Virus record (IMG/VR): IMGVR_UViG_3300045988_058353
Direction: 5' to 3' (one strand)
DNA length: 43,817 nucleotides
DNA from: a virus
In this document: positions 1 to 43,817 of the stretch, piece after piece
Numbering within the stretch: the first letter of the stretch is position 1
How the letters are laid out: each line of letters starts with the position of its first letter
The notes under the pieces: generated by a model
Told to the model about the DNA's origin: nothing
Databases searched by the model: none
The model's input: only the letters and a program-made list of their open reading frames with translations
Made by a program: the position numbers and the translations under genes

Positions 1-55
1 TAAATAAAAAGTGCTTGACAAAGCCATGACAATGATGTAAGATTATATCAACAAA
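1..55. repeat. Window-end redundancy: identical to 43763-43817. Indicates a circular or permuted assembly with a 43762-bp unit.
   Basis: TAAATAAAAAGTGCTTGACAAAGCCATGACAATGATGTAAGATTATATCAACAAA is present at both ends. Confidence 0.9.
15..43 (+). promoter_or_regulatory. Host sigma70-type early promoter P_B (same copy as 43777-43805)
   Basis: TTGACA (15-20), 17-nt spacer AAGCCATGACAATGATG, then TAAGAT (38-43). An A-rich tract lies upstream. The spacer contains a CATGACA operator-like half-site. Confidence 0.7.
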
Positions 56-2873: not shown

Positions 2874-5432
2874 ATGTACAACCTGGAAGAATATGAAAAC
2901 CAATATGGCAAAATGTTTGTTCGTCAGCTTGAAATCGAAGAAGGTTACAAGCAGCTTGCAGCAGAAGCAACTAGCAAGACATATGAGAACGTAGAAAATT
3001 CTACGATGCAAGATGACGTTGCAAGCCAGACCAAGGCAGGACAGAAGTTCATTGCTGCTCAATGGGCACACGTCAACAACGCTATGACGCTGTTTGTGAA
3101 TAGCTGCTTGCAACCTAAAAAGGGTTCTAAAGCAAGCTATGTGCTGTTGGTGCAGGAAATTGAAAAGGTTTGTGGTAAAGAAAACATGGTTAACCTGTTC
3201 ACTCTGACCACGTTTACAACGCTGCTGAATGGTGTGTTGAAGAAAAAGACATCTCGTAGCACATTTGCCAAGAATATCAGTGATGAACTCTATTATGAAA
3301 TTAGCTTGCAAGCCTTTTTGAGTCAATCTGACTTTGCAGAAGTCATCAAAGAGGGTATCAAAAAGCGTGTGGGTATCTCCTATAAACGTGCCTATGTACG
3401 TGCTTGCATGGAACAAGGACAATATACCTACCATGAGTGGGACAAGGAACAACGCTTGACGCTGGCTACATCCTTAATGGAAGTTGTGTTAGCAGCAAGT
3501 AACTACTTTGAAACCACATCTGTGAACGGACTTACCGAGATTATCCCTAGTCAATTCCTTATTGACCAATGGCAGACCAAAACACAATGGCTCATTGATA
3601 ACAGCTACAAGTTCTGCCCCTGTGTGATTCCACCAAGAGAGTGGCAGAGTGTAACCGAGGGTGGATATTATGGCGAACTTGCCAATCAGACCAAGTTGCT
3701 GCGCTTGCGTGATAATCGTGATGTGTTCGCTAAACACTACTTTGCAAAGCTGGCTCAATTAGAACTTACTGATGTTCGCAAGGCTGTGAACGCTGTGCAG
3801 AACACACCCTGGAAGATAAACACAAGAGTCCTGGACGTTCTGAAACACGTGGTTGATATGGGTGGCGATATGGCAGGTATTCCGGCTGTGTATGAAGCAA
3901 CTAAACCCGAGGTGTTACCAGAGAACCCCACGGAAGAACAATTAAAAGTCTATAAAAAGCGTATGGTAGGCTTTTATAAACTTGAAACACGTAGAAAGTC
4001 TATCCTGCTGCGTATCTTATCACACCTCAGAACCGCTGAGAAGTTCGCTAAATACCCAAGAATATATTTTCCTTGTAACATGGATTTTCGTGGCAGAATT
4101 TATCCTGTTCCTGTGTTCTCGTTTCAAGGTGATGATGTCAACAAGTCGCTGATTGAGTTCGCAGATGCTCCAGCTTGTCAAGATGAAAACTGTTGGGACT
4201 GGTTGTTAATCGAAGGTGCAAACCTCGCAGGAGTTGACAAGGTGAGCTACGATGACCGCAAGGCGTGGGTAGCAGAGAACGAAGCACAAATCATGGCTGT
4301 TGTCAATAATCCTAAAGGTGAATTATGGTGGGCAAACCAAGATTCCCCATGTCAATTCTTAGCGTGGTGCTTTGAATATGCACGTGCGAAAGAGTGGAAG
4401 AACACACATAATGATTCCATAGTAGGTTTTGTGTGTGGCTTGAATATCGCTTTTGACGGAACGTGCTCTGGCTTGCAGCATTTTTCAGCGATACTGCGTG
4501 ACCCTGTAGGTGGTCAAGCTGTTAACCTTATTCCTGGTGATAAACCTAGCGATATTTATGGTATCGTAGCTGAAAAGGTTAACAAGGTGCTTGAAAAAGA
4601 TATGCTGAGCGGAACACAAGATGAAGAAGCTACCGACAAGCAAGGCAGAACGTACACCAAGCACGGAACACGTAGCTTGTCAAGCATTTGGTTAGCTTTT
4701 GGCGTGACTCGTAAAGTAACCAAGCGTAGCGTAATGACTCTTGCATATGGCTCTAAAGAGTACGGATTCCGTGACCAGATTTTAGAGGACACAATCAAAC
4801 CCGATGTAAACTTGAATGGTGAGAAGTCTGTGTTTGCAGGATGTGACTTTCAAGCAGCAGGTTATCTTGCTAAGCTCATTTGGGAAGCGGTAGGAACTAC
4901 TGTAATTGCTGCTGTTGAGGGCATGAAGTGGTTACAGACCTGTGCAAGAAAAGTAACCAAACATGACCAGGTTGTGTCCTGGACTACACCTATGGGACTG
5001 CCTGTGCAGCAAGCCTACATGAAGCAGGAAGTGCAAACCATCTTCACTCGCTGTGCAGGTAAGCAGATTCGCTTGTATAGTGCAGAGAATACCGGAGTAA
5101 TCGACAACAGAAGTCAAGCGTCTGGTATTGCTCCTAACTTTATTCATAGCATGGATGCAGCACATTTACAGTTGACAATTTGTAATTGTTATGATATGGG
5201 GATTCGTCATTATGCTATGATTCACGATTCCTATGGTGCGCCATTAGCACAAGCACAACTCATGTATGATACAGTACGTGAGAGCTTTATTCAGATGTAT
5301 ACTGATAACGATGTATTTCAGAATTTTCTGGATGATATGGAACTTCTTGCTGACGAGAAATTACCGAAGATTCCGAAAAAAGGAACACTTGATATTAATG
5401 TTGTTAGAGATTCGAAGTACATTTTCTGTTAA
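2874..5432 (+). CDS. T7-like single-subunit DNA-dependent RNA polymerase
   Basis: 852 aa with GGAGG SD. Motifs DFRGRIYP, FDGTCSGLQHFSAILRD, MTLAYGS, IAPNFIHSMDAAH and MIHDSYG are co-linear with T7 gp1. Confidence 0.95.
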   Translation: MYNLEEYENQYGKMFVRQLEIEEGYKQLAAEATSKTYENVENSTMQDDVASQTKAGQKFIAAQWAHVNNAMTLFVNSCLQPKKGSKASYVLLVQEIEKVCGKENMVNLFTLTTFTTLLNGVLKKKTSRSTFAKNISDELYYEISLQAFLSQSDFAEVIKEGIKKRVGISYKRAYVRACMEQGQYTYHEWDKEQRLTLATSLMEVVLAASNYFETTSVNGLTEIIPSQFLIDQWQTKTQWLIDNSYKFCPCVIPPREWQSVTEGGYYGELANQTKLLRLRDNRDVFAKHYFAKLAQLELTDVRKAVNAVQNTPWKINTRVLDVLKHVVDMGGDMAGIPAVYEATKPEVLPENPTEEQLKVYKKRMVGFYKLETRRKSILLRILSHLRTAEKFAKYPRIYFPCNMDFRGRIYPVPVFSFQGDDVNKSLIEFADAPACQDENCWDWLLIEGANLAGVDKVSYDDRKAWVAENEAQIMAVVNNPKGELWWANQDSPCQFLAWCFEYARAKEWKNTHNDSIVGFVCGLNIAFDGTCSGLQHFSAILRDPVGGQAVNLIPGDKPSDIYGIVAEKVNKVLEKDMLSGTQDEEATDKQGRTYTKHGTRSLSSIWLAFGVTRKVTKRSVMTLAYGSKEYGFRDQILEDTIKPDVNLNGEKSVFAGCDFQAAGYLAKLIWEAVGTTVIAAVEGMKWLQTCARKVTKHDQVVSWTTPMGLPVQQAYMKQEVQTIFTRCAGKQIRLYSAENTGVIDNRSQASGIAPNFIHSMDAAHLQLTICNCYDMGIRHYAMIHDSYGAPLAQAQLMYDTVRESFIQMYTDNDVFQNFLDDMELLADEKLPKIPKKGTLDINVVRDSKYIFC

Positions 5433-27781: not shown

Positions 27782-30064
27782 ATGTCTAATCCAATAGCAA
27801 GTGCTTTAGGCACACAGCGACAATTTACCAAACAACCAGAAGCACCCTATCAAAAGAGATTAATCACACCCTCTTTTGGTAGTGGTATTTCTGCCCAACT
27901 TGATGGCAATGCAGCAGCACTTTCACGTGCTCTGGGTTTACTTGGTGCTGGTTTGATTGGTGAAAGTATCGCTGCTGATAAACGTGCAGAAATGATTGGT
28001 AAAGCAGAAGCTGATAGAATCTTTTCTGTAACCAATGAGAAAGACCGAGAGAAACTTTCTACATTAGATATTCTTGGTCAATCTGGAAAATTTGATATTG
28101 CTGATAACCCCTATGCGGTAGCACGTATTGATGAACTGCGTGGTCAGCACTTAAATACACTGTTCAAGCAGGAGTACGAAAATGAAGTAGTTCCTAACCA
28201 AGAATTGCCCGATAACTCCCAGCAGAACATCTTGAACTTTGAAACCTTTATGGACAAAAAGCTACAAGATTCTGGTATTAAGGCGTATAACAGAACCGCT
28301 TTTGAAAAAGGTTTTTATGGCTCTCGTCCGTTGGATGTGTTACAACAGGATGCTAGTTATCGTAAACGTAGACAAGCTGACCTTGAAGCTGATAGAGATG
28401 CTGCTATTGCTGCCAAAGGTGACGATTTAATCCTGCGTAGTCTTAGTGGGATGACACCAGAAGATTTCGCAAATGGTGCACAGGAATGGCAAACAGACCC
28501 TATGTTAACAGGTATGAGCCGTGCTGACAGAATTAAACTTGTTGATGAGTTTGCAAGACGCACAGCACCTCATGGTAGTGTTGAGAACCTAAAGGCTTGG
28601 GGTGATACTATTGTTTATCACAAAGATGATGGCACACCTGTCAGAGTTAAAGAAGTTATTCCTTTAGGTATCTACTTGGGGATGGCTGAGAAGGCGAGTG
28701 TGCATCTTAATTCTCAAAAAACTAGGGATTTCTTACAAAGTTTAGAAGGAGTACCCTCCGCTTCCATATGGGATAAATATGAAGAAATTAAAAAGAAAGA
28801 CCCGCTGTTCTTTGAAGCGATTGCGCCTACATATGAAGGTGTTAAGAATCGTGCAATAAAAGCAGAAGAAAAAGCTGCTAAGAAAGCTGCTGCTGCGCAG
28901 GAGAGTGTATTTAGACAACAGCTTGTTACATCTACTCTTGATGATAGATGGTTAAGCATGACCCAAGGTAAAGATGTAGATTCCTTCGGTTCTCCTGTGT
29001 ATGATGATACAATCTCTGTTAATGGTAAAAGAATTAAAATCACTGATGAAGAAAAGATTGAGTGGGCGAATACAAAGATGGCTCAGTTCTTTAATAGCCT
29101 TCCACTTGATGAAGCTGGTAAAGAAACCATGAACCTCTTGAAGTTCCCTCAGATGGGCTGCTTAGTGAAAGCAATGAAGGGCAATGTTGGTAATGTATTA
29201 AGTTCTCTGAGCACTCAGTCCTTAACCCATGATGAAGCAGGTGCTTTACAACTTCCTGCTGCCCTCAACAAGTTTGTTGCTATGTACAAGACTGACAAGG
29301 AAACATTCCGTTATCTCTTTGGTAAACAAGGTGATGAAATCTCTGTACTTAGTGACCTTATTGATGCTAATGGTCTTGAAGAGGGTGTGTCTAAGTTCGC
29401 TATGGCAAGAGAGAATATGAGTAATCCCGACTTCAAGAAAGCTGTTGAAAAGAGTGCTGACTTACAGGTTGGTTTTGATTCTACTCTTTCTGTACCTCTG
29501 TTAGGCGGTAATGGTTCTACCGAAGATATTCAGTTCTACGCCAACAGTGCTGTTCAGCTTATGCTTAGTCAAAGTTTTAAGACCAACATGTACTGTGGAC
29601 AAACAGAGGAAGATGCACTCAACAATGCTCGCAAGCGCACAAGTGAATACTTTGTGAGCTATAATGGTTGTGCGTTCCCTAAAGCGTTCTTATACAAGAT
29701 TCCTAGTGAAAATCAGCAGAAAACTGTTATGATGTTCTTGGATGAGAAGATGCAGCAAGAGCAAGGCACAAGACTTATGTATTCTAATGGTACTCTGCAA
29801 ATTTGGCGTAATGGTGTAGCAACTGCTTCTAAATGGAATAATACAACCATTGCAACAGAGGTAGCTAAATGGTTACAAGAATTACCACCAGAAAAGAGAG
29901 TGCTGGTAGATGATGTTTATTATAATCCGTCATTTGATAATAGTGATTACTATGCGTCTAACCCGGATGCCAGCAAGATTGAAGCTGCTGAAAAAGAAAC
30001 AGGTGTTGATATGAGTAGTCCTGCGGGTGCTCTTATTGATGCGATTGGAGGTATATTTAAATGA
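27782..30064 (+). CDS. Internal virion (ejection) protein C, gp15-like
   Basis: 760 aa, syntenic. Confidence 0.65.
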   Translation: MSNPIASALGTQRQFTKQPEAPYQKRLITPSFGSGISAQLDGNAAALSRALGLLGAGLIGESIAADKRAEMIGKAEADRIFSVTNEKDREKLSTLDILGQSGKFDIADNPYAVARIDELRGQHLNTLFKQEYENEVVPNQELPDNSQQNILNFETFMDKKLQDSGIKAYNRTAFEKGFYGSRPLDVLQQDASYRKRRQADLEADRDAAIAAKGDDLILRSLSGMTPEDFANGAQEWQTDPMLTGMSRADRIKLVDEFARRTAPHGSVENLKAWGDTIVYHKDDGTPVRVKEVIPLGIYLGMAEKASVHLNSQKTRDFLQSLEGVPSASIWDKYEEIKKKDPLFFEAIAPTYEGVKNRAIKAEEKAAKKAAAAQESVFRQQLVTSTLDDRWLSMTQGKDVDSFGSPVYDDTISVNGKRIKITDEEKIEWANTKMAQFFNSLPLDEAGKETMNLLKFPQMGCLVKAMKGNVGNVLSSLSTQSLTHDEAGALQLPAALNKFVAMYKTDKETFRYLFGKQGDEISVLSDLIDANGLEEGVSKFAMARENMSNPDFKKAVEKSADLQVGFDSTLSVPLLGGNGSTEDIQFYANSAVQLMLSQSFKTNMYCGQTEEDALNNARKRTSEYFVSYNGCAFPKAFLYKIPSENQQKTVMMFLDEKMQQEQGTRLMYSNGTLQIWRNGVATASKWNNTTIATEVAKWLQELPPEKRVLVDDVYYNPSFDNSDYYASNPDASKIEAAEKETGVDMSSPAGALIDAIGGIFK

Positions 30065-33000
30065 ATGGGTACGAGATAGCTAATGGTATCTCACAACGAT
30101 TAAAAGATATGTATGGTGAAAATCTTGCACCTTCCTTAATATACGCTCAATTATCACACGAAACAGGTGGGTTCACAAGTGAGCTTGCCACAAAACATCA
30201 TAACTATGGTGGTGTGACACAAACTACTCCTAATGGTTTAGCTCAACCAGATGGTTCTAACTACTACATGAACTTTGATTCTGATGAATCTTTTATGGAT
30301 TACATGGCTGGTTATCTTTACAAGTATAAAGAGGATGGTTTGTTTGATGCCTATGATGCACGTAGTTATGCAACTGCCTTGAAACATGGTGGTTACTTTG
30401 GTGATGATGTTGAGAACTACACAGCAGGTATGGAGAACGCTATTGGTACTGCTAGTTTAGGTGAGTTCATCCAGGGAGCATATGAGGGTTCTAATCCTAC
30501 TGCTCCTGTGGTGGAACAGGAAGAACCAGAAGAAGCAGACTTCTTTGACAAGATGCAGGACACTATGTTCGATTCTGCTCTTTGGGGTTCTTTCCGTACT
30601 GCTGCTGCAAAGAAAGACCTGCCGGACGAAGAAGGTTATAAACTAACACAAGAAGATATTGATAGGGTACAGAAGGAACTTGGTGACTACACAGCTACCT
30701 TATGGGTGTGTCAGAACGCTAACAGTCCTGCGCAACTTGAACGCCTTATCAGAATGAAGAAGGAAGATTTAGAGCGTAGAAAGCGTGTTGAAGAATCCAG
30801 TATGGGTCTGTCAACCGCTGGTACTCTACTAGGTCTTTTCCTTGACCCTCTGAACTATGTACCTATACTTGGTGCAACAGGTAAACTTGGTAGTGCAGCA
30901 CGATATGCAAAGTTAGCTGCTGGTGCTTCTGTTGGTAACTTAGTTGACAGAGGTTTAGCGCAGGCTGCTACTGGTTACCGCCAAGACTATCCTATGGCTG
31001 CCTTAATGGGTGCTGTGGGTGGTGCAGGTATTCCTATGGCTCTTGACCTGCTTGGTAAAGGTTTCTCTAAGGCAACTAAAGCTGTTGGTGAACAACTTTA
31101 TGGCGAAGCAACTAACATAATAATTGATGCTGAAAGATTAGCCAAAGGTGAGAAATTGTCAGTCGAAAGAACCAGCTCCAAGGAATTTATTGATTCTTTG
31201 ACACAGGTGCATGATAAAGATTTTGTTAAGTCTATTAAAGATGCAGGTGTTGCTGGTCAGATTCGTCCTAAACACAATGTTTTTGTGGTTTCCAAAGAGA
31301 ACGCTAAGAAGATTGTTGAAGGACGTGGATGGGAATTTGATGATAATGCTAAAGGTTTCTTTGATGATGAAACAGGTGTGACTGTGCTTATCAAAGAGAA
31401 TCTTAGTGGTAGCGAAGATATTCGTAAAACCCTGTTGCATGAACGTGGCGCACATGGTTTGAAGTACGTGTTGAGTCCGAATGATTACGCTAAGGTTCTG
31501 GCAGAGTTAAGATTCCGTATTAATAACAATCCATCACCTGCTATTGAGCGTGCTATTAAACGTGCAGGTGGTAATGCTGACGCTGAGGAAGTCCTTGGTT
31601 ATCTCGCTGAGGAAATGAAACCATCTAACCCTCTAATGCGAAACATCCGTAAAGCAATGGATAAAGGTCTTAATGCTTTAGGTGTTAAAGGCAGGCTTAG
31701 TGATGATGACTTTATTGACATTCTGACTAAGGGTGCTAAACACTATGCTGATGGACAGAATGGTTACAGGGTTCTGAAAGATGGCTCTTGTGAGTACAAA
31801 GGTATTCACTACTCTACGAAGAACTTGTTTAACCCAGCGAATCTCACAAGGGCAGCTTGGTTTGAACATGCTAAAAAGAAGGTAAAAGAAACTGCTGAAA
31901 CCCTTTCAAAACGTACTGCTCTTTATGCAACGCCTTATTCTGTGTGTAGCACATCAAAGTCAAAGACTCTAAAAGAATTAGCAGGTAAACTTGTTACTTC
32001 TCCTTATATGGAGCGTTTGAATGGTGGTATTCCTGCTGAGGTCTATAAGGACAATATGCGCTTCCATGCTGAACATATGATAAATAATTATATGAAGGTA
32101 CGTGATGAAGCCTTAGTACGCTTACAGACGCTCTCTGCTGATGCTAAGTATGATTATAACGAAGCTGTTATTCGTGCTTATAATGCTAAAAATGCAGGTA
32201 ACACAGCAGCAACAGTCGGTCATAATTTCCCACCAGAAGTAATGAAGGGTGTTGCTGAAATAGAGAAGCTGCGTGAATATCTCAAAGAGCTTCTTACAGA
32301 CCCCTCGAAATATCTCGGTGAGGGTTATGGTTTGTTACCGCATGATTGGTACAACCATTCTGATGAGTTCTTTAGATGGATTGATGAAGGTAAACACGCA
32401 AAGCTCTTAGTTGATTTTCAAAACAAAGAAGATATGGCTAAGTTTCTTTATAAATACTGCTATAAATTCGGTAAGAAAGATGTTGTGCGCAAACAGATTG
32501 AGGACGAGATGACTGCTGCATGGCGCAAAGAGTGTGAGAAAGCTAAGGCAAAAGGTAAACCATTGCCGGAAGCACCTAAACTTTCTGAGGATGAGTTCTT
32601 ACAAGAATATGATAAAAGAGCTAGGGAATGTGCTATGGGTTGGACAGACTTGGGTGCATCTGAAACTGAGAAAACAGCGAACTTCAATATGACTAAAATC
32701 GGTTCTTTGGATTGTTTGAATTACAGGTTTCCTTTAGATACCTCTGGTCAAATGGAGATAAAGGGTAATATGTTTAGTTTTGATGATAACTTACGCTCTT
32801 ATGATATTGACTCTTTTCTCAATCCTCTTGTGAACCGCTTGACAGGTGAAGTATCTTTGACTACTGTATTTCCTAAAGATGCACAGACTATCTTTGCGAA
32901 TCCTTTAGGTTTCGTGAAGAATGTTGATTATAACTTACAAGGGATGCGTTCTGTTATTGATGCTGAGTTAGATGATTTAGTGCAACGCAGACAGATTACT

Positions 33001-34410
33001 AAAGACCAGAAAACAAATGACCTTAGAGCCTTTGATTTCATGTGTGATAAATTACGTAGTATGCCTGTTGCTGAGCACCCTCATACTCTCTTAGATGCAG
33101 CAGCACGTACCTTGAATAGCTATGCTTATGCTCGTAATAGTGGTAACATGGTATTTAATCAGTTAGGTGAAATAAGTGGTACACTTGCTTACGCTGGTTA
33201 TAATGCATTATTCGATGTGATGCCAGGTTTAGGTAAGATTGTGACAGAAGCACGTATGGGTAAGGGAAGTGTTGAAATGCTTGAAGATGCACGTTTAGCT
33301 ACTTTTGGTGACGAAGGGTATCGCTATATCTTTGGTAACGCAGGTGATTCATCTTCAAGAATTTATCGTGATATTCTTAATGATACACGAACTGCAAAGG
33401 CTTTAGATAAAGTCGCTGGTTTTGCTAATTTAACGTCTAACCTCATATCTAAGGTAACAGGTTTCCAAAAGTTAACCGAAACGATGATTCAAAGCGCACA
33501 GAAGCAGACTATGATTGATTTAGCTAAATGGGTAAATGGTAAGGAATTTCCATCTTATCGAAACCCTTTTTCTAAAAATAAGTTAGAAGCTATTGGCTTG
33601 AAATATAAGAATTCTGCTGCTGATTTTCGTGAAGCACTCAAACCTTATATTGTGCTAGATAAAGAGGGCAACCTAGTTGATTTTAATATAAAAGCACTAC
33701 GTCAAAATGACCCGGAATTGTATATGCAGTATTATATGCTTATGACGAACCAAGTAAAGCGTTGTATTACTATGCCCTCTATTGGGAGCACTAATATGCT
33801 CAAAGAAGCTAATCCGTTTTGGAGAGTGTTCTTCATGTTCAAGGATTTTACAATGAGAGCAACACATACACAGACTTTACGTGTTGCACACAATCGAGAA
33901 ACTGATGATTTGCTTGCAACTATGTTCTCTATGGCTACTAACTTAGCAGTTGTTACTGGTTTAGCTTATGCACGCTCTAAATTTGTATATAATAGAAAGA
34001 ATGAAGCAGAGCACGAACGTTATATGAAAGAATATATGAGTCCTAAGAGTTTAATATATATAGCGGGTTTACGTGGTAGTGTAACTGGTTCTTCTTTTTC
34101 TCATTATGCGGATATTGCAGAAGCAGCAGGTCTTTCACCTGTTCCATCTATCAGAACAACTACCAATAGATATAAACGTGATAAAAATAGTAATGAAATA
34201 GTAGGTGAATATCTAACACAACTTCCTGCTATAAAAACAGGAACAGATTTGTTGAAAGCACCTATGCAATTAACAAAAGTATTACCCGGTGAGAGATACA
34301 CACGTAAGGATTTTGATGACTTATTACAGTTATTACCCGGTCAGAATTTTATTCTTATGTTGCGATTACGTGATGAGCTTGCAGATGCAGCAAACTTGCC
34401 AAAAAGATAA
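30061..34410 (+). CDS. Internal virion (ejection) protein D, gp16-like, with an N-terminal glucosaminidase/FlgJ-type muralytic domain
   Basis: 1449 aa, syntenic. The N-terminal IYAQLSHETGGFTSELATKHHNYGGV fits the glucosaminidase-family catalytic region. Confidence 0.75.
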   Translation: MNGYEIANGISQRLKDMYGENLAPSLIYAQLSHETGGFTSELATKHHNYGGVTQTTPNGLAQPDGSNYYMNFDSDESFMDYMAGYLYKYKEDGLFDAYDARSYATALKHGGYFGDDVENYTAGMENAIGTASLGEFIQGAYEGSNPTAPVVEQEEPEEADFFDKMQDTMFDSALWGSFRTAAAKKDLPDEEGYKLTQEDIDRVQKELGDYTATLWVCQNANSPAQLERLIRMKKEDLERRKRVEESSMGLSTAGTLLGLFLDPLNYVPILGATGKLGSAARYAKLAAGASVGNLVDRGLAQAATGYRQDYPMAALMGAVGGAGIPMALDLLGKGFSKATKAVGEQLYGEATNIIIDAERLAKGEKLSVERTSSKEFIDSLTQVHDKDFVKSIKDAGVAGQIRPKHNVFVVSKENAKKIVEGRGWEFDDNAKGFFDDETGVTVLIKENLSGSEDIRKTLLHERGAHGLKYVLSPNDYAKVLAELRFRINNNPSPAIERAIKRAGGNADAEEVLGYLAEEMKPSNPLMRNIRKAMDKGLNALGVKGRLSDDDFIDILTKGAKHYADGQNGYRVLKDGSCEYKGIHYSTKNLFNPANLTRAAWFEHAKKKVKETAETLSKRTALYATPYSVCSTSKSKTLKELAGKLVTSPYMERLNGGIPAEVYKDNMRFHAEHMINNYMKVRDEALVRLQTLSADAKYDYNEAVIRAYNAKNAGNTAATVGHNFPPEVMKGVAEIEKLREYLKELLTDPSKYLGEGYGLLPHDWYNHSDEFFRWIDEGKHAKLLVDFQNKEDMAKFLYKYCYKFGKKDVVRKQIEDEMTAAWRKECEKAKAKGKPLPEAPKLSEDEFLQEYDKRARECAMGWTDLGASETEKTANFNMTKIGSLDCLNYRFPLDTSGQMEIKGNMFSFDDNLRSYDIDSFLNPLVNRLTGEVSLTTVFPKDAQTIFANPLGFVKNVDYNLQGMRSVIDAELDDLVQRRQITKDQKTNDLRAFDFMCDKLRSMPVAEHPHTLLDAAARTLNSYAYARNSGNMVFNQLGEISGTLAYAGYNALFDVMPGLGKIVTEARMGKGSVEMLEDARLATFGDEGYRYIFGNAGDSSSRIYRDILNDTRTAKALDKVAGFANLTSNLISKVTGFQKLTETMIQSAQKQTMIDLAKWVNGKEFPSYRNPFSKNKLEAIGLKYKNSAADFREALKPYIVLDKEGNLVDFNIKALRQNDPELYMQYYMLMTNQVKRCITMPSIGSTNMLKEANPFWRVFFMFKDFTMRATHTQTLRVAHNRETDDLLATMFSMATNLAVVTGLAYARSKFVYNRKNEAEHERYMKEYMSPKSLIYIAGLRGSVTGSSFSHYADIAEAAGLSPVPSIRTTTNRYKRDKNSNEIVGEYLTQLPAIKTGTDLLKAPMQLTKVLPGERYTRKDFDDLLQLLPGQNFILMLRLRDELADAANLPKR

Positions 34411-34456
34411 TAATATTATATAATTAAAGAAAAGAAATTTATAAGGAGGTATAACT

Positions 34457-34627
34457 ATGTTGTTGAATATTGCGTGGCTTATTATTGGTTTTATATTCCC
34501 TTTTATTATAGGCTGGATTGTAATGGATTACAACCATTATAGTTATGTAGGTATACTGATGGGAATTATTATGATAGCTGCTGGATTGCTTGTACCTCTG
34601 AGCTGCATAGGTAAAACAAAAGAATAA
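34457..34627 (+). CDS. Small two-TMD membrane protein (56 aa, not in the ORF track)
   Basis: AAGGAGG lies 7 nt upstream. Sequence MLLNIAWLIIGFIFPFIIGWIV...GILMGIIMIAAGLLVPL. Confidence 0.5.
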   Translation: MLLNIAWLIIGFIFPFIIGWIVMDYNHYSYVGILMGIIMIAAGLLVPLSCIGKTKE

Positions 34628-34645
34628 CTTTCAAACAAACTTTAT

Positions 34646-34685
34646 GACACTACTTAGTTCAACTAGGTAGTGTCTTTTCTTTTAT
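34646..34685 (+). terminator. Intrinsic terminator (+ strand)
   Basis: GACACTACTTAG / TTCAA / CTAGGTAGTGTC gives a 12-bp stem with one mismatch, followed by TTTTCTTTT. Confidence 0.75.
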
Positions 34686-34689
34686 CTAA

Positions 34690-34737
34690 ACAAAAAAGTA
34701 CGGCGCAACGCTAATAGGGAAATAACGCACCGTACTT
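34690..34737 (-). terminator. Intrinsic terminator for the minus-strand peptide gene
   Basis: In minus-strand RNA, AGUACGGUGCG pairs with UGCGCCGUACU (11 bp including two G-U pairs, which would be C-A mismatches on the + strand), followed by UUUUUU. Confidence 0.65.
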
Positions 34738-34746
34738 GTAGTTCAT

Positions 34747-34845
34747 TTACTTGTTAAAGTAACGTGAAATGATTACATGAGCAATAACATTCACGGCAAT
34801 GGGTAGAACTACTTGACCCATCACAAAGGAAATAACTTCCTTCAA
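34747..34845 (-). CDS. Fst/Ldr-like type I toxin candidate (32 aa from TTG; alternative starts GTG 34824 or ATG 34821). Not in the ORF track.
   Basis: (M)KEVISFVMGQVVLPIAVNVIAHVIISRYFNK compares with remembered pAD1 Fst MKDLMSLVIAPIFVGLVLEMISRVL.... It has its own promoter and terminator and runs opposite to all neighbours. Confidence 0.5.
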   Translation of the reverse strand: MKEVISFVMGQVVLPIAVNVIAHVIISRYFNK

Positions 34846-34907
34846 AATTTAGCATCAACCTTTCTTAGTTATTTCCGAGCCGTTTAAGAAATCGGATGCT
34901 ATTACTT

Positions 34908-34936
34908 ATTGTATCATTTTGCTTGCTTATTATCAA
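34908..34936 (-). promoter_or_regulatory. sigma70 promoter for the minus-strand peptide transcript
   Basis: On the minus strand: TTGATA (34936-34931), 17 nt, TACAAT (34913-34908). Confidence 0.6.
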
Positions 34937-34957
34937 ATATATTAAGGAGTGATAAAC

Positions 34958-36634
34958 ATAGAAAAAGCATTGAAAACTTCCGTTACCTACAACGGAACAG
35001 GCTCTCAGACTCGCTTTGATTTTCCGTTTGATTACCTGCGGAAATCCTTTGTGCGTGTTTCTGTTAACAATGAGCCAATGGATAACACAGCCGACTACAC
35101 CATTGATAGTCGCACTGTGGTGTTCCATGATGCTCCACCGAGTAACAGTATCATTCGCATTTATCGTGAAACTGATACTTCCAGATTGGTAGTGTGGGCA
35201 GACGCAAGTGTTCTGAAAGCTTCCGATATGACCATCCAACAGGTGCAGCAACTTCACATCTTAGAGGAAGCAAATGATTGGACTAAAACCAACTCTATTG
35301 TTCTCAATGACGAAGGTAACGCATGGCAAGGACGCAACTATCGTGTGTCTAATGTGTCTGACCCGACAGAAGCACAGGATGTTGTAACCAAGAATTACTT
35401 AGAGAACACCGAGGATTCCTTTGTTCAGCGCATGAACGCTATCAAGACACAGACTGAACAATTTGCTAACACAGCAGGTAACAGTAAAGATAGTGCTTAT
35501 AAGAGTGCACAGACTGCTAGTACGTCTGCTGCAAGTGCTGCGGAAAGCGCAAGGTTAGCCGAAGGTTACAAGAATGTAGCTGAAACCGCTAAGAGTGATG
35601 CATCCCTTTATGCTGCCAACGCTAAGACCTCTGCTGATAATGCAGGTGCTAGTAAAGAAGCAGCTCAATCTGCTGCTACTACTGCTAGTAACTTTGCGTC
35701 TGATGCAAGAAACAGCGCAGGTGAAGCAAAGACCTACAAGGACAATGCAAAAACCTACATGGACAATGCTAAGAATTATAGTGAAAATGTCAATGTATTC
35801 ATTCCTAGTGTGTCCTCTGAGGGTGTTTTAAGTTGGACAAATAAAGCTGGATTGACTAACCCCAAAAATGTGAATATCAAGGGTGCAAAAGGTGATACAG
35901 GTACTGCTGCGTCTATCACGATTGGCACTGTGAAAACAGGTGCAGCAGGTAGTAATGCAAGTGTTACCAATAGCGGTACTGCTAGTAATGTTGTGCTGAA
36001 CTTTACGTTGCCTAGAGGTAGAGATGGTGCTGATGGTGGTATCACTGTTGATGCTGAATTAAGTGATACAAGCACGAATCCAGTGCAAAATAAAGTCATT
36101 CATGAAACTTTTACTAGTTTTAATGAAAGGCTGCGTAACGGCTTGCTCACTGTAAAAGGGTCTATTCCTACTAAAGTATCTGCTTTGGAGAACGATGTTG
36201 GCTATCTGACACAGCACCAATCGCTTGATGGGTATGCCCAAAAGTCAACAGCTAACACATGGGGAGAACAACAAGCCTTTAAGTATGCGAAGTTGGGATA
36301 CGAAAAATACACTTCTCCTAAGGTAAGTGGTACAGGTGCTGCACCTTCACTATCCGTAGCACATTATATAGCAACAGGGGCATTTACGCTCAACCTTAAT
36401 AAACTTTCGACTAACTTAGAAATTAAGGAAACCTCTGTGTTTACGGCTTACATTGAGTCCTCTGCTGACTACCCTCTGACCATAACTAATGCAGGAACAC
36501 TTAAATACATTGGCAGTGCTAGTGATGTAGCTATTACAAGTGCAGGTCTGTTGTTAAACATTTTGATAATGAAGGATGCTGAGGGAAATGTGACTAGTAT
36601 CGTACAAGCATCTAAGTTAGAAGGTGGTGCATAA
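34958..36634 (+). CDS. Tail fiber, gp17-like N-terminal adaptor with divergent distal part; start probably ATA 34958
   Basis: ALKTSVTYNGTGSQTRFDFPFDYLRKSFVRV...SRLVVWADASVLKASDMTIQQVQQLHILEEAND parallels T7 gp17 VIKTVLTYQLDGSNRDFNIPFEYLARKFVVV...AQIQTMHVAEEARD. Also has Ala/Ser-rich coiled repeats and a GAKGDTG segment. Confidence 0.85.
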   Translation: MEKALKTSVTYNGTGSQTRFDFPFDYLRKSFVRVSVNNEPMDNTADYTIDSRTVVFHDAPPSNSIIRIYRETDTSRLVVWADASVLKASDMTIQQVQQLHILEEANDWTKTNSIVLNDEGNAWQGRNYRVSNVSDPTEAQDVVTKNYLENTEDSFVQRMNAIKTQTEQFANTAGNSKDSAYKSAQTASTSAASAAESARLAEGYKNVAETAKSDASLYAANAKTSADNAGASKEAAQSAATTASNFASDARNSAGEAKTYKDNAKTYMDNAKNYSENVNVFIPSVSSEGVLSWTNKAGLTNPKNVNIKGAKGDTGTAASITIGTVKTGAAGSNASVTNSGTASNVVLNFTLPRGRDGADGGITVDAELSDTSTNPVQNKVIHETFTSFNERLRNGLLTVKGSIPTKVSALENDVGYLTQHQSLDGYAQKSTANTWGEQQAFKYAKLGYEKYTSPKVSGTGAAPSLSVAHYIATGAFTLNLNKLSTNLEIKETSVFTAYIESSADYPLTITNAGTLKYIGSASDVAITSAGLLLNILIMKDAEGNVTSIVQASKLEGGA

Positions 36635-41593: not shown

Positions 41594-42775
41594 TTACTTG
41601 GTGCAGTCCATGAGATTAGCAGCTAATTGGTGTTGTTTCTTGATGGTGTGTGCATACACATCAAAGGTGATAGACACACTTGAATGACCTAAGCGTTCAC
41701 TAACAGTTTTGTAATCGTTACCGGATAGTTCAATAAGTTTCGTTGCATTTGTGTGCCTTAGGGAGTGAAACGTGAAGTGCCTGGTAATACCTGCTTTTAA
41801 TAAATATCTTTGAAAACACGCTCGAAGCGTACCTCCTGCTAAAATTTTAGTGCCATTGAAATCCTTAGAGAATACATAATCATCCTTGTCTGAGAACTGG
41901 AAGGATGCTTTGTGTTTTGTAAGAATTTCAATCAGACCCTCTGAGATAACTATAAGGCGATTAGAAGATGCTGTTTTTGGTGTTGAATCCACAATACCTT
42001 TCGACAGGGTGACACGTTGATTATCTACATGAATAGTGTGATTCTTAAAATCAACACGTGACCACCTTAACCCTAAGATTTCACCGATACGCATTCCTGT
42101 TTCATATGCTATCATAAAGGCAACATAGAGTAGAGATGCAGCATCTGGTTTGTGTTGTGGTTTTTCTTCTAATCTCGTATCATAAGCAGCTTTCAGAACC
42201 CCTCTGAGAGCTTCAAATTCGCCTTCTGAGAGGACTTCTATGTCACTCTTAGGGAACTTAGTAGCCACCCATAAACAGCCTTCTGTGGGACTTGTAGAAA
42301 TGATTTTGAGCACTCTGATAGCATAGTTGAATACAATACGTATCAGAGTTAGATAGGCTCTTATAGAGCGTTCTGCTTTGTGTTGTTTACGCATTGCTGT
42401 GATGAACTCATCAATATCCTTTGTGGTAATCTTTGAGATGGTCTTTGTGGCAAGATAAGGAGCAATTACCTTTAGGTGATTTTGGTAGTGGTAGAGTGTT
42501 GTTTCCTTGACATTGGAGCGTGACTGCTTGTACTCAATGTAGTTCTTAGCAAGTGCTTCAAAGGTCATGTTCATACTTACTGCTACATCTGCTTCATCAC
42601 GGAGCTTCATGAAACCACGAAGTAACACACGTGCTTCTGTAAGGCTATCTGCTGTTCCAGAGAGCTGCTTGCGTTTACCATTGACGTAGCCACAGTCGAG
42701 CCTTATGCGATACTTATTGTTATCCAGTTTGGTTATAGAACCTTCACCTTTTGTTCTTCTACGTTTTGTTGACAT
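41594..42775 (-). CDS. int: Tyrosine recombinase / phage integrase
   Basis: AGGAGG SD. C-terminal catalytic region ...GMRIGEILGLRW...HSLRHTNATKLI...LGHSSVSITFDVYAH. Confidence 0.95.
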   Translation of the reverse strand: MSTKRRRTKGEGSITKLDNNKYRIRLDCGYVNGKRKQLSGTADSLTEARVLLRGFMKLRDEADVAVSMNMTFEALAKNYIEYKQSRSNVKETTLYHYQNHLKVIAPYLATKTISKITTKDIDEFITAMRKQHKAERSIRAYLTLIRIVFNYAIRVLKIISTSPTEGCLWVATKFPKSDIEVLSEGEFEALRGVLKAAYDTRLEEKPQHKPDAASLLYVAFMIAYETGMRIGEILGLRWSRVDFKNHTIHVDNQRVTLSKGIVDSTPKTASSNRLIVISEGLIEILTKHKASFQFSDKDDYVFSKDFNGTKILAGGTLRACFQRYLLKAGITRHFTFHSLRHTNATKLIELSGNDYKTVSERLGHSSVSITFDVYAHTIKKQHQLAANLMDCTK

Positions 42776-43644: not shown

Positions 43645-43663
43645 AAATTTTTTCAAAAAGTGC

Positions 43664-43692
43664 TTGACATCGTCATGACACTAGTGTATTAT
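43664..43692 (+). promoter_or_regulatory. Host sigma70-type early promoter P_A
   Basis: TTGACA (43664-43669), 17-nt spacer TCGTCATGACACTAGTG, TATTAT (43687-43692). It has the same AAAAAGTGCTTGACA upstream context as P_B. GTCATGAC lies in the spacer. Confidence 0.7.
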
Positions 43693-43706
43693 AATAACCA
43701 ACAGAG

Positions 43707-43724
43707 GTCATGACGCAACATGAC
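43707..43724. promoter_or_regulatory. Operator-like sites downstream of P_A
   Basis: GTCATGAC (43707-43714) and CATGAC (43719-43724). Confidence 0.5.
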
Positions 43725-43762
43725 GCGAAAGAGGGAAACAAAATGAGTAAATGAAAAAAAAA

Positions 43763-43817
43763 TAAATAAAAAGTGCTTGACAAAGCCATGACAATGATGT
43801 AAGATTATATCAACAAA
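43763..43817. repeat. Second copy of the window-end redundancy (equals 1-55, includes P_B)
   Basis: Identical to bases 1-55. Confidence 0.9.

What the first reader, a model, noticed from the sequence alone, without database searches (positions are those of the whole stretch)
34690..34936. Hidden minus-strand moron: Fst-like type I toxin peptide with its own promoter, structured leader and strand-specific terminator
Seen: between gp16 and the tail fiber lies the only minus-strand unit inside the structural operon, and it is not in the ORF track. Its parts are a promoter (TTGATA-17-TACAAT, 34936-34908), a ~55-nt leader, a 32-codon ORF (34845-34747) and a terminator. The ORF encodes (M)KEVISFVMGQVVLPIAVNVIAHVIISRYFNK. 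The terminator stem needs G-U pairs, so it works only on the minus-strand RNA. The leader word GGAAAUAAC is complementary to GUUAUUUCC at codons 4-6 and again in the terminator loop. The 5' AGCAUC can pair with GAUGCU next to the purine-rich GAAAGG. Established: Fst/Ldr-type toxins are ~30-aa hydrophobic peptides with a conserved Pro-Ile. Their mRNAs sequester the translation start through 5' structures. The peptide resembles remembered pAD1 Fst (MKDLMSLVIAPIFVGLVLEMISRVL). Inference: this is a type I toxin-antitoxin or abortive-infection moron carried by the prophage. Late phage transcripts reading through on the + strand would be fully antisense to it.
Basis: partly seen in the sequence, partly recalled or inferred. 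Interest (0 to 1): 0.75.

Follow-up and report, generated by a model that had tools for sequence, protein, structure and literature searches.

The report
Toxin-like membrane peptide moron in prophage
A temperate T7-like phage of the gut bacterium Phascolarctobacterium carries, backwards inside its tail genes, a small self-contained gene for a 32-residue membrane peptide whose RNA is built like a type I toxin message, but no antitoxin RNA gene was found and membership of the Fst family is not shown.

Summary
At 34936-34688 (minus strand) there is a host-type promoter with an extended -10, a 55-nt leader, a 32-codon TTG ORF and an intrinsic terminator. The unit is a conserved, mobile cassette. 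I found six sequence types (A-F), all in T7-like prophages of Phascolarctobacterium type, at two different genome positions. It always lies antisense to its neighbours and is absent from near-identical phages. The hydrophobic frame is open in all types. Three hairpins inside the ORF keep 96% of their pairs, with five compensatory pairs. The 9-mer GGAAATAAC occurs three times in the 43.8-kb window, all inside the cassette. The Fst assignment is not established. The Pfam and PDB searches gave no hit, and NCBIfam gave one sub-threshold hit (E = 0.015). hhalign against real Fst peptides gave 43-46% probability. The Trp/charged-tail signature is absent. No convergent RNA II-type promoter, bidirectional terminator or flanking repeats were found, although the same tools detect all of these in a real par locus. 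The computed cost of opening the start region is ordinary. Best reading: a lysogen-expressed, toxin-like membrane peptide moron without a dedicated antitoxin gene, damped by its own RNA folding and by convergent phage transcription. Function is untested.

The parts
34908..34936 (-). Host sigma-70-type promoter: -35 TTGATA (34936-34931), 17-nt spacer, TG (34916-34915), -10 TACAAT (34913-34908)
   Evidence: 10/12 matches, TG present. Types C, D, E and F have an equivalent -10 seven nt upstream of AGCATCC; in D it is TTGACT-17-TATAAT, 11/12. The -35 side is also present in cassette-less L002.
34846..34900 (-). About 55-nt leader. It contains 5' AGCAUCC (34900-34894), the stem UCCGA/UCGGA, the element GGAAAUAAC (34876-34868), the purine-rich SD AAGAAAGG (34866-34859) and GAUGCU (34856-34851, which includes the out-of-frame ATG at 34855).
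   Evidence: AGCAUCC and GAUGCU are invariant in all leader-bearing types. UCCGA/UCGGA becomes UCCAC/GUGGA in type C, two compensatory pairs.
34747..34845 (-). ORF of 32 codons plus stop (TTG start), encoding the single-pass membrane peptide MKEVISFVMGQVVLPIAVNVIAHVIISRYFNK
   Evidence: The frame is open in six variants while the other two frames carry stops, and dN/dS is 0.22-0.8. Invariant residues are K2 E3 I5 S6 F7 V12 V13 L14 P15 I16 V18 V20 I21 R28.
34825..34843 (-). Hairpin H3: GAAGGAA (34843-34837), loop GUUAU, UUCCUUU (34831-34825). It covers the G of the start codon and codons 2-7, and contains GUUAUUUCC (34836-34828), which is complementary to the leader element.
   Evidence: the stem is invariant; all variation is in the loop. 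(repeat I5, 10 nt, 100% complementary).
34796..34824 (-). Hairpin H4: GUGAUGGGU (34824-34816) pairs with ACCCAUUGC (34804-34796)
   Evidence: nine pairs, three of them with compensatory changes on both sides, 96% of cells paired.
34763..34795 (-). Hairpin H5: outer stem CGUG/CACG and inner stem AUUGC/GUAAU
   Evidence: two pairs with compensatory changes, 95-96% of cells paired.
34688..34737 (-). Intrinsic terminator: stem-loop 34737-34696 with GUUAUUUCC (34726-34718) in its apical part, then a U-tract at 34695-34688
   Evidence: -17.8 kcal/mol, z = -4.3; plus strand -13.1 and no U-tract. The loop 9-mer is kept in types A, D and E, is degenerate in B and absent in C and F.
34396..34674 (+). 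Context, not part of the cassette: a convergent plus-strand unit with promoter TTGCCA-17-TATAAT (34396-34424), a 56-aa membrane ORF (34457-34627) and a terminator (34646-34674)
   Evidence: The unit is present without the cassette in L001 and L002.

Best explanation
This is a self-contained, horizontally shuffled moron cassette of about 235 bp, carried by temperate T7-like phages of Phascolarctobacterium (Negativicutes).

Shown by the sequence and comparisons:
- A host-type promoter sits upstream of a roughly 212-nt RNA that ends at a terminator active only in the minus direction.
- The RNA encodes a conserved 29-35-aa peptide with a polar head (MKE), one transmembrane helix with an invariant central Leu-Pro-Ile, and a short basic tail.
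- The RNA carries three conserved hairpins inside the ORF and a conserved 5' helix next to the ribosome-binding site.

Inferred:
- Host RNA polymerase transcribes the cassette in lysogens.
- Translation is kept low by a UUG start about 10 nt (effective spacing) from a weak SD, and by the RNA folding.
- The leader element GGAAAUAAC can pair alternatively with the upstream AUUUC(C/U), with codons 4-6, or with the terminator loop.
- The product is a membrane-active, toxin-like peptide. Polar or small residues recur every fourth position (Q11-P15-N19-H23-S27), which would give one polar face.
- The cassette contains no dedicated antitoxin gene. The only antisense RNA available is convergent phage transcription, which would silence the cassette during lytic growth.
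- The likely benefit is to the lysogen or prophage: exclusion or abortive infection, or prophage retention.
For: Anatomy.

Cassette nature and mobility:
- It is absent from L001 (gp16 C-terminus 100% identical) and from L002, and present in the more distant L004 and L005.
- The same cassette sits between an excisionase-like gene and a 175-aa gene in other T7-like prophages, again antisense to both neighbours.
- A sixth type, F, was found in L255.

Host and lysogeny: the same integrase lies next to host SNF/arg genes whose ArgG is 100% identical to that of a Phascolarctobacterium MAG.

Coding:
- The frame is open in all types, and substitutions are conservative.
- Types A, C and F keep UUG 10 nt after an ATG that lies too close to the SD to be used. 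Types D and E have a 1-nt deletion that puts that ATG in frame, with the SD shifted upstream.

RNA structure:
- 96.3% of cells are paired, five pairs show compensatory change, and 0 of 500 shuffles reach the observed covariation score. Slid controls pair at 40-59%.
- The leader stem has two compensatory pairs.
- The 9-mer occurs three times, only inside the cassette.

Resemblance to Fst: hhalign score 19.4 against 9.2 +/- 2.4 for column shuffles (0 of 300 reach it), and 5 of 250 for shuffles of the transmembrane core only.

No antisense promoter: with a positive control on a real par locus.
Against: - There is no expression or toxicity data.
- The opening energy of the start region is ordinary, so RNA-level repression is not demonstrated.
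- No HMM places the peptide in a toxin family.
- A constitutively made toxin without an antitoxin in lysogens is awkward, so the peptide may simply be non-toxic.
- Only six variants exist, forming about three lineages, so covariation statistics are thin.
- Type B lacks a promoter, a leader and the UUG start. It may be a decaying copy, which shows the cassette is dispensable.
- Leader-ORF and leader-terminator-loop pairings are each missing or imperfect in some types.
Confidence: 0.42

Rival explanations
1. The cassette is a non-toxic small membrane protein moron. The peptide would be a lysogen-expressed accessory factor, for example a superinfection-exclusion factor that blocks DNA entry of related T7-like phages, or a modulator of a host membrane protein. 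On this view the RNA structure only stabilises the message.
For: - The moron features are all met.
- There is no antitoxin gene.
- Start-region accessibility is ordinary.
- There is no toxin-family HMM hit.
- An adjacent 56-aa membrane-protein unit with its own promoter shows that this gap collects such genes.
Against: - The weak UUG start behind a strong promoter, a 5'-end helix abutting the SD and a thrice-repeated pairing element are unusual for a plain accessory gene.
- The order-dependent resemblance to Fst exceeds shuffled controls.
Confidence: 0.3
2. The cassette is a true Fst/par-family type I toxin-antitoxin module. Its antisense sRNA would have escaped detection because of a non-consensus promoter or because it is processed from the convergent transcript. 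It would carry the plus-strand terminator hairpin, whose loop GGAAAUAAC pairs with codons 4-6.
For: - The peptide architecture and the LPI.V(N/G)V motif resemble the APIFVG motif of Fst. hhalign gives 43-46% probability, and NCBIfam NF033608 gives E = 0.015 for type C.
- A direct repeat of GGAAATAAC lies at the ORF 5' end and in the terminator loop (repeat D4). This loosely recalls DRa/DRb plus a shared terminator.
- The host belongs to Bacillota.
Against: - All HMM thresholds are missed, and a PDB profile search found nothing at E <= 10.
- The peptide has no conserved Trp and no charged cluster after the helix, which is the signature given in PMC2887945.
- There is no convergent promoter, no bidirectional terminator and no repeat beyond the terminator, in either genomic context. 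The same scans find these in the pTEF1 par locus (against 5, 69-71, 86).
- The loop repeat is absent in types C and F.
Confidence: 0.15
3. The ORF is incidental. On this view the functional product is the structured RNA itself, acting as a regulatory sRNA or as a transcription roadblock or antisense against late-operon read-through. Alternatively, the unit is a decaying remnant.
For: - There is strong, covarying RNA structure across the whole transcript.
- dN/dS is as high as 0.7-0.8 in some pairs.
- Type B is truncated and promoterless.
Against: - The hydrophobic frame is open in 6 of 6 variants although both other frames have several stops. Substitutions are conservative, and start-codon and SD arrangements are repaired in two different ways.
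- Because the cassette sits at two unrelated positions, it cannot be antisense to one particular phage gene.
Confidence: 0.08

Closest known systems
par (Fst / RNA I - RNA II) of Enterococcus faecalis pAD1/pTEF1, and the Fst/Ldr type I toxin superfamily
   Same: - The peptide is about 30 aa, with a polar N-terminus (MKE against MKD), one transmembrane helix and a central Pro-Ile followed by V-G/N.
- The toxin-type mRNA is about 210 nt, with a strong promoter, a 5' helix, structure around the start and an intrinsic terminator.
- A short repeat links the ORF 5' end with the terminator region.
- The host belongs to Bacillota, and the unit sits on a mobile element.
   Different: - It scores below every HMM threshold.
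- The helix start carries four extra residues.
- There is no Trp and no acidic or charged cluster; the tail is short and basic.
- There is no RNA II gene, no convergent promoter, no bidirectional terminator and no DRa/DRb beyond the terminator.
- The start codon is UUG.
Prophage-borne type I toxins (B. subtilis SPbeta bsrG/SR4 and yonT/SR6; C. difficile phiCD630 modules; E. coli hok and ralR in cryptic prophages)
   Same: A small hydrophobic peptide gene with its own promoter sits inside a prophage. A role in prophage maintenance or phage exclusion is plausible. This comparison rests on my knowledge of the literature and on the abstracts listed.
   Different: Those systems all have an identified antisense RNA with its own promoter overlapping the toxin gene. 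None was found here, and there is no sequence similarity to them.
hok and aapA1 mRNAs (translation locked by 5'-3' long-distance pairing and activated by 3' processing)
   Same: A leader element that is complementary both to the start-proximal codons and to the 3' terminal hairpin would allow a similar fold-back switch.
   Different: The 5'-3' complementarity exists only in types A, D and E (degenerate in B). No processing is known, there is no Sok- or IsoA-type RNA, and the peptide family is unrelated. The resemblance is one of logic only and is inferred.
Phage morons encoding small inner-membrane exclusion proteins (for example HK97 gp15)
   Same: The unit has an independent promoter and terminator, is inserted between late genes, varies in presence among close relatives, and is expected to be expressed from the prophage.
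   Different: The peptide is much smaller, the mRNA has toxin-like features, and there is no sequence relation.

Membership tests
Fst family type I toxin (Pfam PF13955 / NCBIfam NF033608) | Scores above the curated threshold of the family HMM | tested here: not met
   Pfam gave no hit at E <= 10 for any variant. NCBIfam NF033608 hit only type C, at 15.1 bits and E = 0.015 against a cut-off of 26. Types A, B, D, E and F gave no hit.
Fst family type I toxin | Profile-level similarity to authentic Fst peptides | tested here: inconclusive
   I compared the candidate alignment with seven PGAP-annotated Fst toxins retrieved from plasmids. hhalign gave 43-46% probability, P = 2e-4, over 21 columns with a 4-residue gap. 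The score exceeds column shuffles (0 of 300), but 5 of 250 shuffles of the transmembrane core reach it.
Fst/Ldr superfamily | [quoted passage not shown] 2010, PMC2887945) | tested here: not met
   The tails are SRYFNK, TKRL, TRFFKN, KRLFKS and TTRL. None has a Trp, and each carries only 1-3 charged residues, all basic (signature quoted).
Fst/Ldr superfamily | A peptide of about 30 aa with one transmembrane helix and a conserved central Pro | tested here: met
   V12 V13 L14 P15 I16 V18 V20 I21 are invariant in six variants. The corresponding Fst motif is V-I-A-P-I-F-V-G.
par-type locus organisation | A convergent RNA II gene with its own promoter, a shared bidirectional terminator, and direct repeats (DRa/DRb) at the toxin start and beyond the terminator | tested here: not met
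   Positive control on pTEF1 par: a convergent promoter at 10/12 with TG, a terminator with an A-run and a T-run, and a 28-nt direct repeat. In the cassette there is no antisense promoter at 9/12 or better in types A, B, C or D, and only non-conserved 8/12 candidates. A U-tract exists on one strand only. The flanks beyond the terminator differ between the two genomic contexts.
Type I toxin-antitoxin system (general) | An antisense RNA that represses the toxin mRNA | tested here: inconclusive
   No dedicated gene was found (see the par-type organisation row), and there is no complementary site elsewhere in the phage. Convergent phage or neighbour transcripts would be antisense in both contexts. 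RNA data are needed.
Type I toxin-antitoxin system (general) | The peptide is toxic when over-expressed | not testable with these tools
   This needs an induction experiment.
Type I toxin-antitoxin system (general) | A structured, stable toxin mRNA with an occluded ribosome-binding region | tested here: inconclusive
   The structure is strong and covaries. However, the opening energy around UUG is 5.5-7.1 kcal/mol, within the range of ordinary genes of this phage.
Phage moron | Its own promoter and terminator, embedded in but independent of a phage operon | tested here: met
   The unit is opposite in orientation to all neighbours in both contexts.
Phage moron | Presence/absence polymorphism among close relatives, and occurrence at different sites | tested here: met
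   It is absent from L001 and L002 with clean junctions. It occurs in the gp16/tail-fibre gap in types A, B, C and F, and in the xis/175-aa gap in types D and E.

The most novel reading that the evidence does not exclude
This would be an antitoxin-less type I-like toxin cassette. The mRNA's own leader (GGAAAUAAC) would toggle between a decoy in the terminator loop and the start-proximal codons, as a fold-back lock. The only trans-acting 'antitoxin' would be the phage's convergent late transcription. The membrane toxin would then be licensed in lysogens and extinguished when the prophage itself goes lytic. That would make it a lysogeny-coupled exclusion or abortive-infection device of temperate T7-like phages in Negativicutes.
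Probability: 0.15. Interest if true: 0.7.

Novelty: new variant of a known kind. Interest (0 to 1): 0.5.

Why it matters
A search of 1.84 billion protein representatives found only one relative. The cassette has clear signs of selection on both the protein and the RNA fold, and it moves between positions in an unusual phage group: temperate T7-like phages of a diderm Bacillota gut commensal.

If the peptide is a toxin, it would extend type I-like toxins to Negativicutes prophages. It would also give a compact case in which control comes from cis RNA folding and convergent phage transcription rather than from a dedicated sRNA.

If the peptide is harmless, it is a candidate exclusion factor against T7-like DNA entry.

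Either way it is a tractable 235-bp unit that can be tested directly.

Tried and rejected
Searches that found nothing useful:
- DNA searches of the region and of 20 kb against INPHARED phages found no match. tblastn of the peptide against plasmids found no match.
- Rfam at E <= 10 over 34300-35300 gave only chance hits, the best being SpF11 on the plus-strand terminator at half its threshold.
- PADLOC and PHROGs gave nothing meaningful.
An exact-sequence look-up of the window peptide found no called gene.
- Two pattern scans of genome contigs returned only chance matches inside unrelated ORFs. No chromosomal copy exists among the species representatives.
- The gp16 C-terminus and the integrase were not found in genome contigs.

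Ideas considered and rejected:
- A phage-RNAP promoter in the gap: the consensus TAACTGACACACGGATAGAAGAA has six copies, none of them here.
- The out-of-frame ATG ORF (34858-34754) as the real product: its length and sequence are not conserved (13 aa in C and F), and in D and E that ATG is in frame with the hydrophobic ORF.
- An internal GTG/ATG start at codons 8-9: this is GCG in F and GTA or ATA at codon 9 in D and E, and it is buried in H4 with an opening energy of 11.8-16.2 kcal/mol.
- Programmed frameshifting from the ATG: there is no conserved slippery site (by inspection).
- Covariation in the leader-ORF duplex: type C looked compensatory, but type F (7 bp) and types D and E (one mismatch) do not sustain it.
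- The RNAalifold long-range pairing of the SD with the U-tract was discarded as an artefact of a misaligned terminator.

Full report
**What the window is.**
- The 43,817-nt window is a circularly assembled, complete genome. Positions 1-55 repeat at 43763-43817, and the record is ENA ERZ1755031 NODE_180.
- It is a T7-like phage. It has a single-subunit RNA polymerase (2874-5432), a tail tubular protein, a gp16-like internal virion protein (30061-34410), a tail fibre (34949-36634), a T7-type terminase and a tyrosine integrase (41594-42775, minus strand).
- The same integrase and early region are found integrated next to a host SNF symporter and an arg operon. The ArgG of that operon is 100% identical to that of a Phascolarctobacterium MAG.
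- The host is therefore a Negativicute (a diderm member of Bacillota), and the phage is temperate. It has no close relative among 50,697 GenBank phage records.

**Checking the observation.**
- Promoter: the scan reports TTGATA-17-TACAAT with an upstream TG at 34936-34908 on the minus strand.
- ORF: 34845-34747 is a TTG-initiated 32-codon ORF.
- Terminator: the 3' hairpin (34737-34696) plus U-tract folds at -17.8 kcal/mol on the minus strand. On the plus strand it folds at -13.1 kcal/mol, and no U-tract follows it.
- Whole transcript: the 214-nt RNA folds at -59.4 kcal/mol (z = -4.0). The 5' AGCAUC pairs with GAUGCU, and there are three successive hairpins over the ORF.
- Repeated 9-mer: the leader GGAAAUAAC is perfectly complementary to codons 4-6 and to the terminator loop. 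These are the only three occurrences of that 9-mer in the whole window, against 0.39 expected.
- Two corrections. The G-U pairs are not essential, because L007 has A-U at one of them. The opening energy of the start region is ordinary, at 5.5-7.1 kcal/mol against 7.6 +/- 3.9 for 35 phage genes.

**The unit is a conserved, mobile cassette.**
- Relatives were recovered through the gp16 C-terminus, DNA patterns, a profile of the peptide, a search of 1.84 billion protein representatives and exact-protein look-ups. Together they give six sequence types.
- Type A (the window and near-identical copies from several metagenomes, one on a 98-kb contig) lies in the same gap between gp16 plus a small membrane ORF and the tail fibre. 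So do types B (L004), C (L005) and F (L255).
- Types D (L114-L117) and E (L126, L127) lie elsewhere in other T7-like prophages: between an excisionase-like HTH_17 gene and a 175-aa gene, next to the attachment end.
- In both places the cassette is antisense to both neighbours.
- L001, whose gp16 C-terminus is 100% identical to the window, and L002 lack the cassette, with clean junctions. L002 still keeps the -35 side of the promoter.
- No copy was found in 185,579 species-representative genomes. This is the behaviour of a moron.

**The ORF is probably translated.**
- The hydrophobic frame is open in all six types, whereas both other frames carry two to five stops.
- Substitutions are conservative, and dN/dS is 0.22-0.41 in the more divergent comparisons.
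- Fourteen positions are invariant: K2 E3 I5 S6 F7 V12 V13 L14 P15 I16 V18 V20 I21 R28.
- The start arrangement is maintained in two ways. In types A, C and F a UUG lies 10 nt after an ATG that abuts the purine-rich SD. That ATG is too close to the SD to be used, and it is out of frame. In types D and E a 1-nt deletion puts the ATG in frame and the SD sits 5-7 nt upstream of it, which adds Met-Leu-Ile.
- Type B has lost the promoter, the leader and the UUG. It is probably a decaying copy.
- Polar or small residues recur every fourth position (Q11, P15, N19, H23, S27, with equivalents in the other types). This would give one polar face to the helix. That is an inference from the alignment, not a test.

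**RNA structure is under selection.**
- I counted pairs on a gap-free alignment of the six ORF 5' regions, covering hairpins H3 (start codon to codon 7), H4 (codons 8-17) and H5 (codons 17-28).
- 96.3% of cells are paired and five pairs show changes on both sides. None of 500 shuffles reaches the observed covariation score or the percentage paired. Slid controls pair at only 40-59% (five-sequence version).
- Several compensations use synonymous sites, for example GGU/CUA changing to GGC/UUG.
- In the leader, UCCGA/UCGGA becomes UCCAC/GUGGA in type C, which is two compensatory pairs.
- The 5' AGCAUC(C) and the GAUGCU next to the SD are invariant. This fits pairing but gives no covariation.
- The leader-to-codon 4-6 duplex is 10 bp in A, 9 bp in C, 7 bp in F and interrupted in D and E. 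The terminator-loop copy is present in A, D and E, degenerate in B and absent in C and F. These long-range pairings therefore remain a hypothesis.

**Is it Fst?** Taken together the tests below give a real but weak, order-dependent resemblance in the peptide. The defining locus features were tested and are not met, so I do not file the cassette as an Fst/par member.
- NCBIfam's Fst model gives a single sub-threshold hit for type C (15.1 bits against a cut-off of 26, E = 0.015) and nothing for the other five types.
- A profile search of PDB chain sequences finds nothing at E <= 10.
- I retrieved authentic, PGAP-annotated Fst toxins from enterococcal, Vagococcus, Ligilactobacillus and Lactococcus plasmids and compared the two profiles. 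The result was 43-46% probability, P = 2e-4, over 21 columns with a 4-residue gap.
- That score exceeds column-shuffled controls (0 of 300). It is less clear-cut when only the transmembrane core is shuffled (5 of 250).
- The superfamily signature described by Fozo et al. is a conserved Trp after the helix followed by a charged cluster (PMC2887945). It is absent here.
- At the locus level, the same tools applied to the pTEF1 par locus find the convergent RNA II promoter, the bidirectional terminator and the 28-nt direct repeats.
- In the cassette they find no antisense promoter at 9/12 or better in any scanned type. A relaxed scan finds only weak candidates that are not conserved in position.
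- The DNA beyond the terminator is unrelated in the two genomic contexts.

**Most likely mechanism.**
- Shown: the cassette is a host-promoter-driven, strand-specifically terminated, highly structured mRNA for a conserved single-pass membrane peptide. It is carried as a moron by temperate phages.
- Inferred: it is expressed in lysogens, and possibly early in infection, because the promoter resembles the phage's own host-type early promoters at the genome ends.
- Inferred: its translation is throttled by the UUG start, the weak SD and the folding. During lytic growth it is overrun by convergent phage transcription. No phage promoter lies between 19089 and 40133, so tail-fibre expression requires read-through of the cassette.
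- Inferred: shutting off a membrane-active peptide would protect holin timing.
- Whether the peptide is toxic (an exclusion, abortive-infection or retention device) or a benign exclusion or regulatory factor cannot be decided here. I give 0.42 to the toxin-like reading, 0.30 to the benign one, 0.15 to a classical Fst-type TA with an undetected sRNA, and 0.08 to an RNA-only or remnant reading.

**Novelty and verdict.**
- The peptide family is absent from Pfam, NCBIfam, PHROGs and PADLOC, and it has essentially one relative cluster among 1.84 billion representatives.
- The kind of thing, a prophage moron with a type I toxin-like small ORF, is known.
- The lack of a dedicated antitoxin gene, the triple 9-mer and the setting in T7-like prophages of Negativicutes make it a new variant rather than a new category.
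Interest is moderate (0.5).

Noticed in passing
window 1490, 1910, 7092, 11280, 15791, 22140, 43129, 43627: There are eight copies of an 18-nt perfect palindrome, TTGAGTATTAATACTCAA. Most lie between or at the ends of predicted genes, and one abuts the phage-RNAP promoter at 1935. It could be a repressor operator or an RNA-processing hairpin of this temperate T7-like phage.
   Followed up: no
window 1935, 5452, 6599, 9119, 19089, 40133: The phage RNA-polymerase promoter consensus TAACTGACACACGGATAGAAGAA has six copies. None lies between 19089 and 40133, so genes from the capsid to the terminase depend on read-through of the hairpin at 34646-34674 and of the cassette.
   Followed up: partly
window 34396-34674 (+): A near-consensus host-type promoter (TTGCCA-17-TATAAT, 11/12) lies inside the last codons of gp16. 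It is followed by a 56-aa membrane ORF (34457-34627) and a strong terminator (34646-34674, -18.1 kcal/mol). This forms a second moron-like unit convergent with the cassette. The promoter is conserved in L001, L002 and L004.
   Followed up: partly
window 34943-34975 (+): The only canonical start of the tail-fibre ORF, GTG at 34949, lies inside its own SD (AAGGAGTG). An ATA codon 8 nt after GGAG is conserved in the window, L001, L002, L003 and L005, and would give an N-terminus of the same length as T7 gp17 (the gp17 comparison is from memory). This may be a non-canonical ATA start.
   Followed up: no
L002 5165-5200; window 34918-34948: Cassette-less L002 retains the -35 side of the cassette promoter (TGCTTATTATCAA) directly after the plus-strand terminator. 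This is either a deletion scar or the recombination joint through which the cassette is gained and lost.
   Followed up: partly
L004 5330-5350 vs window 34859-34869: The 11-mer ACTAAGAAAGG, which includes the SD of the cassette, lies on the minus strand in the window. In L004 it appears on the plus strand as the tail-fibre SD, exactly where the type B cassette is truncated. This may be chance or may trace an inversion or deletion event.
   Followed up: no
window 1-55 and 43650-43817: Strong host-type early promoters lie at the genome ends (TTGACA-17-TAAGAT, and TTGACA-17-TATTAT with TG), and the terminal 55 nt are duplicated by the circular assembly. The prophage integrates beside an SNF symporter and arg operon in Phascolarctobacterium. 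No tRNA gene is present in the phage.
   Followed up: partly
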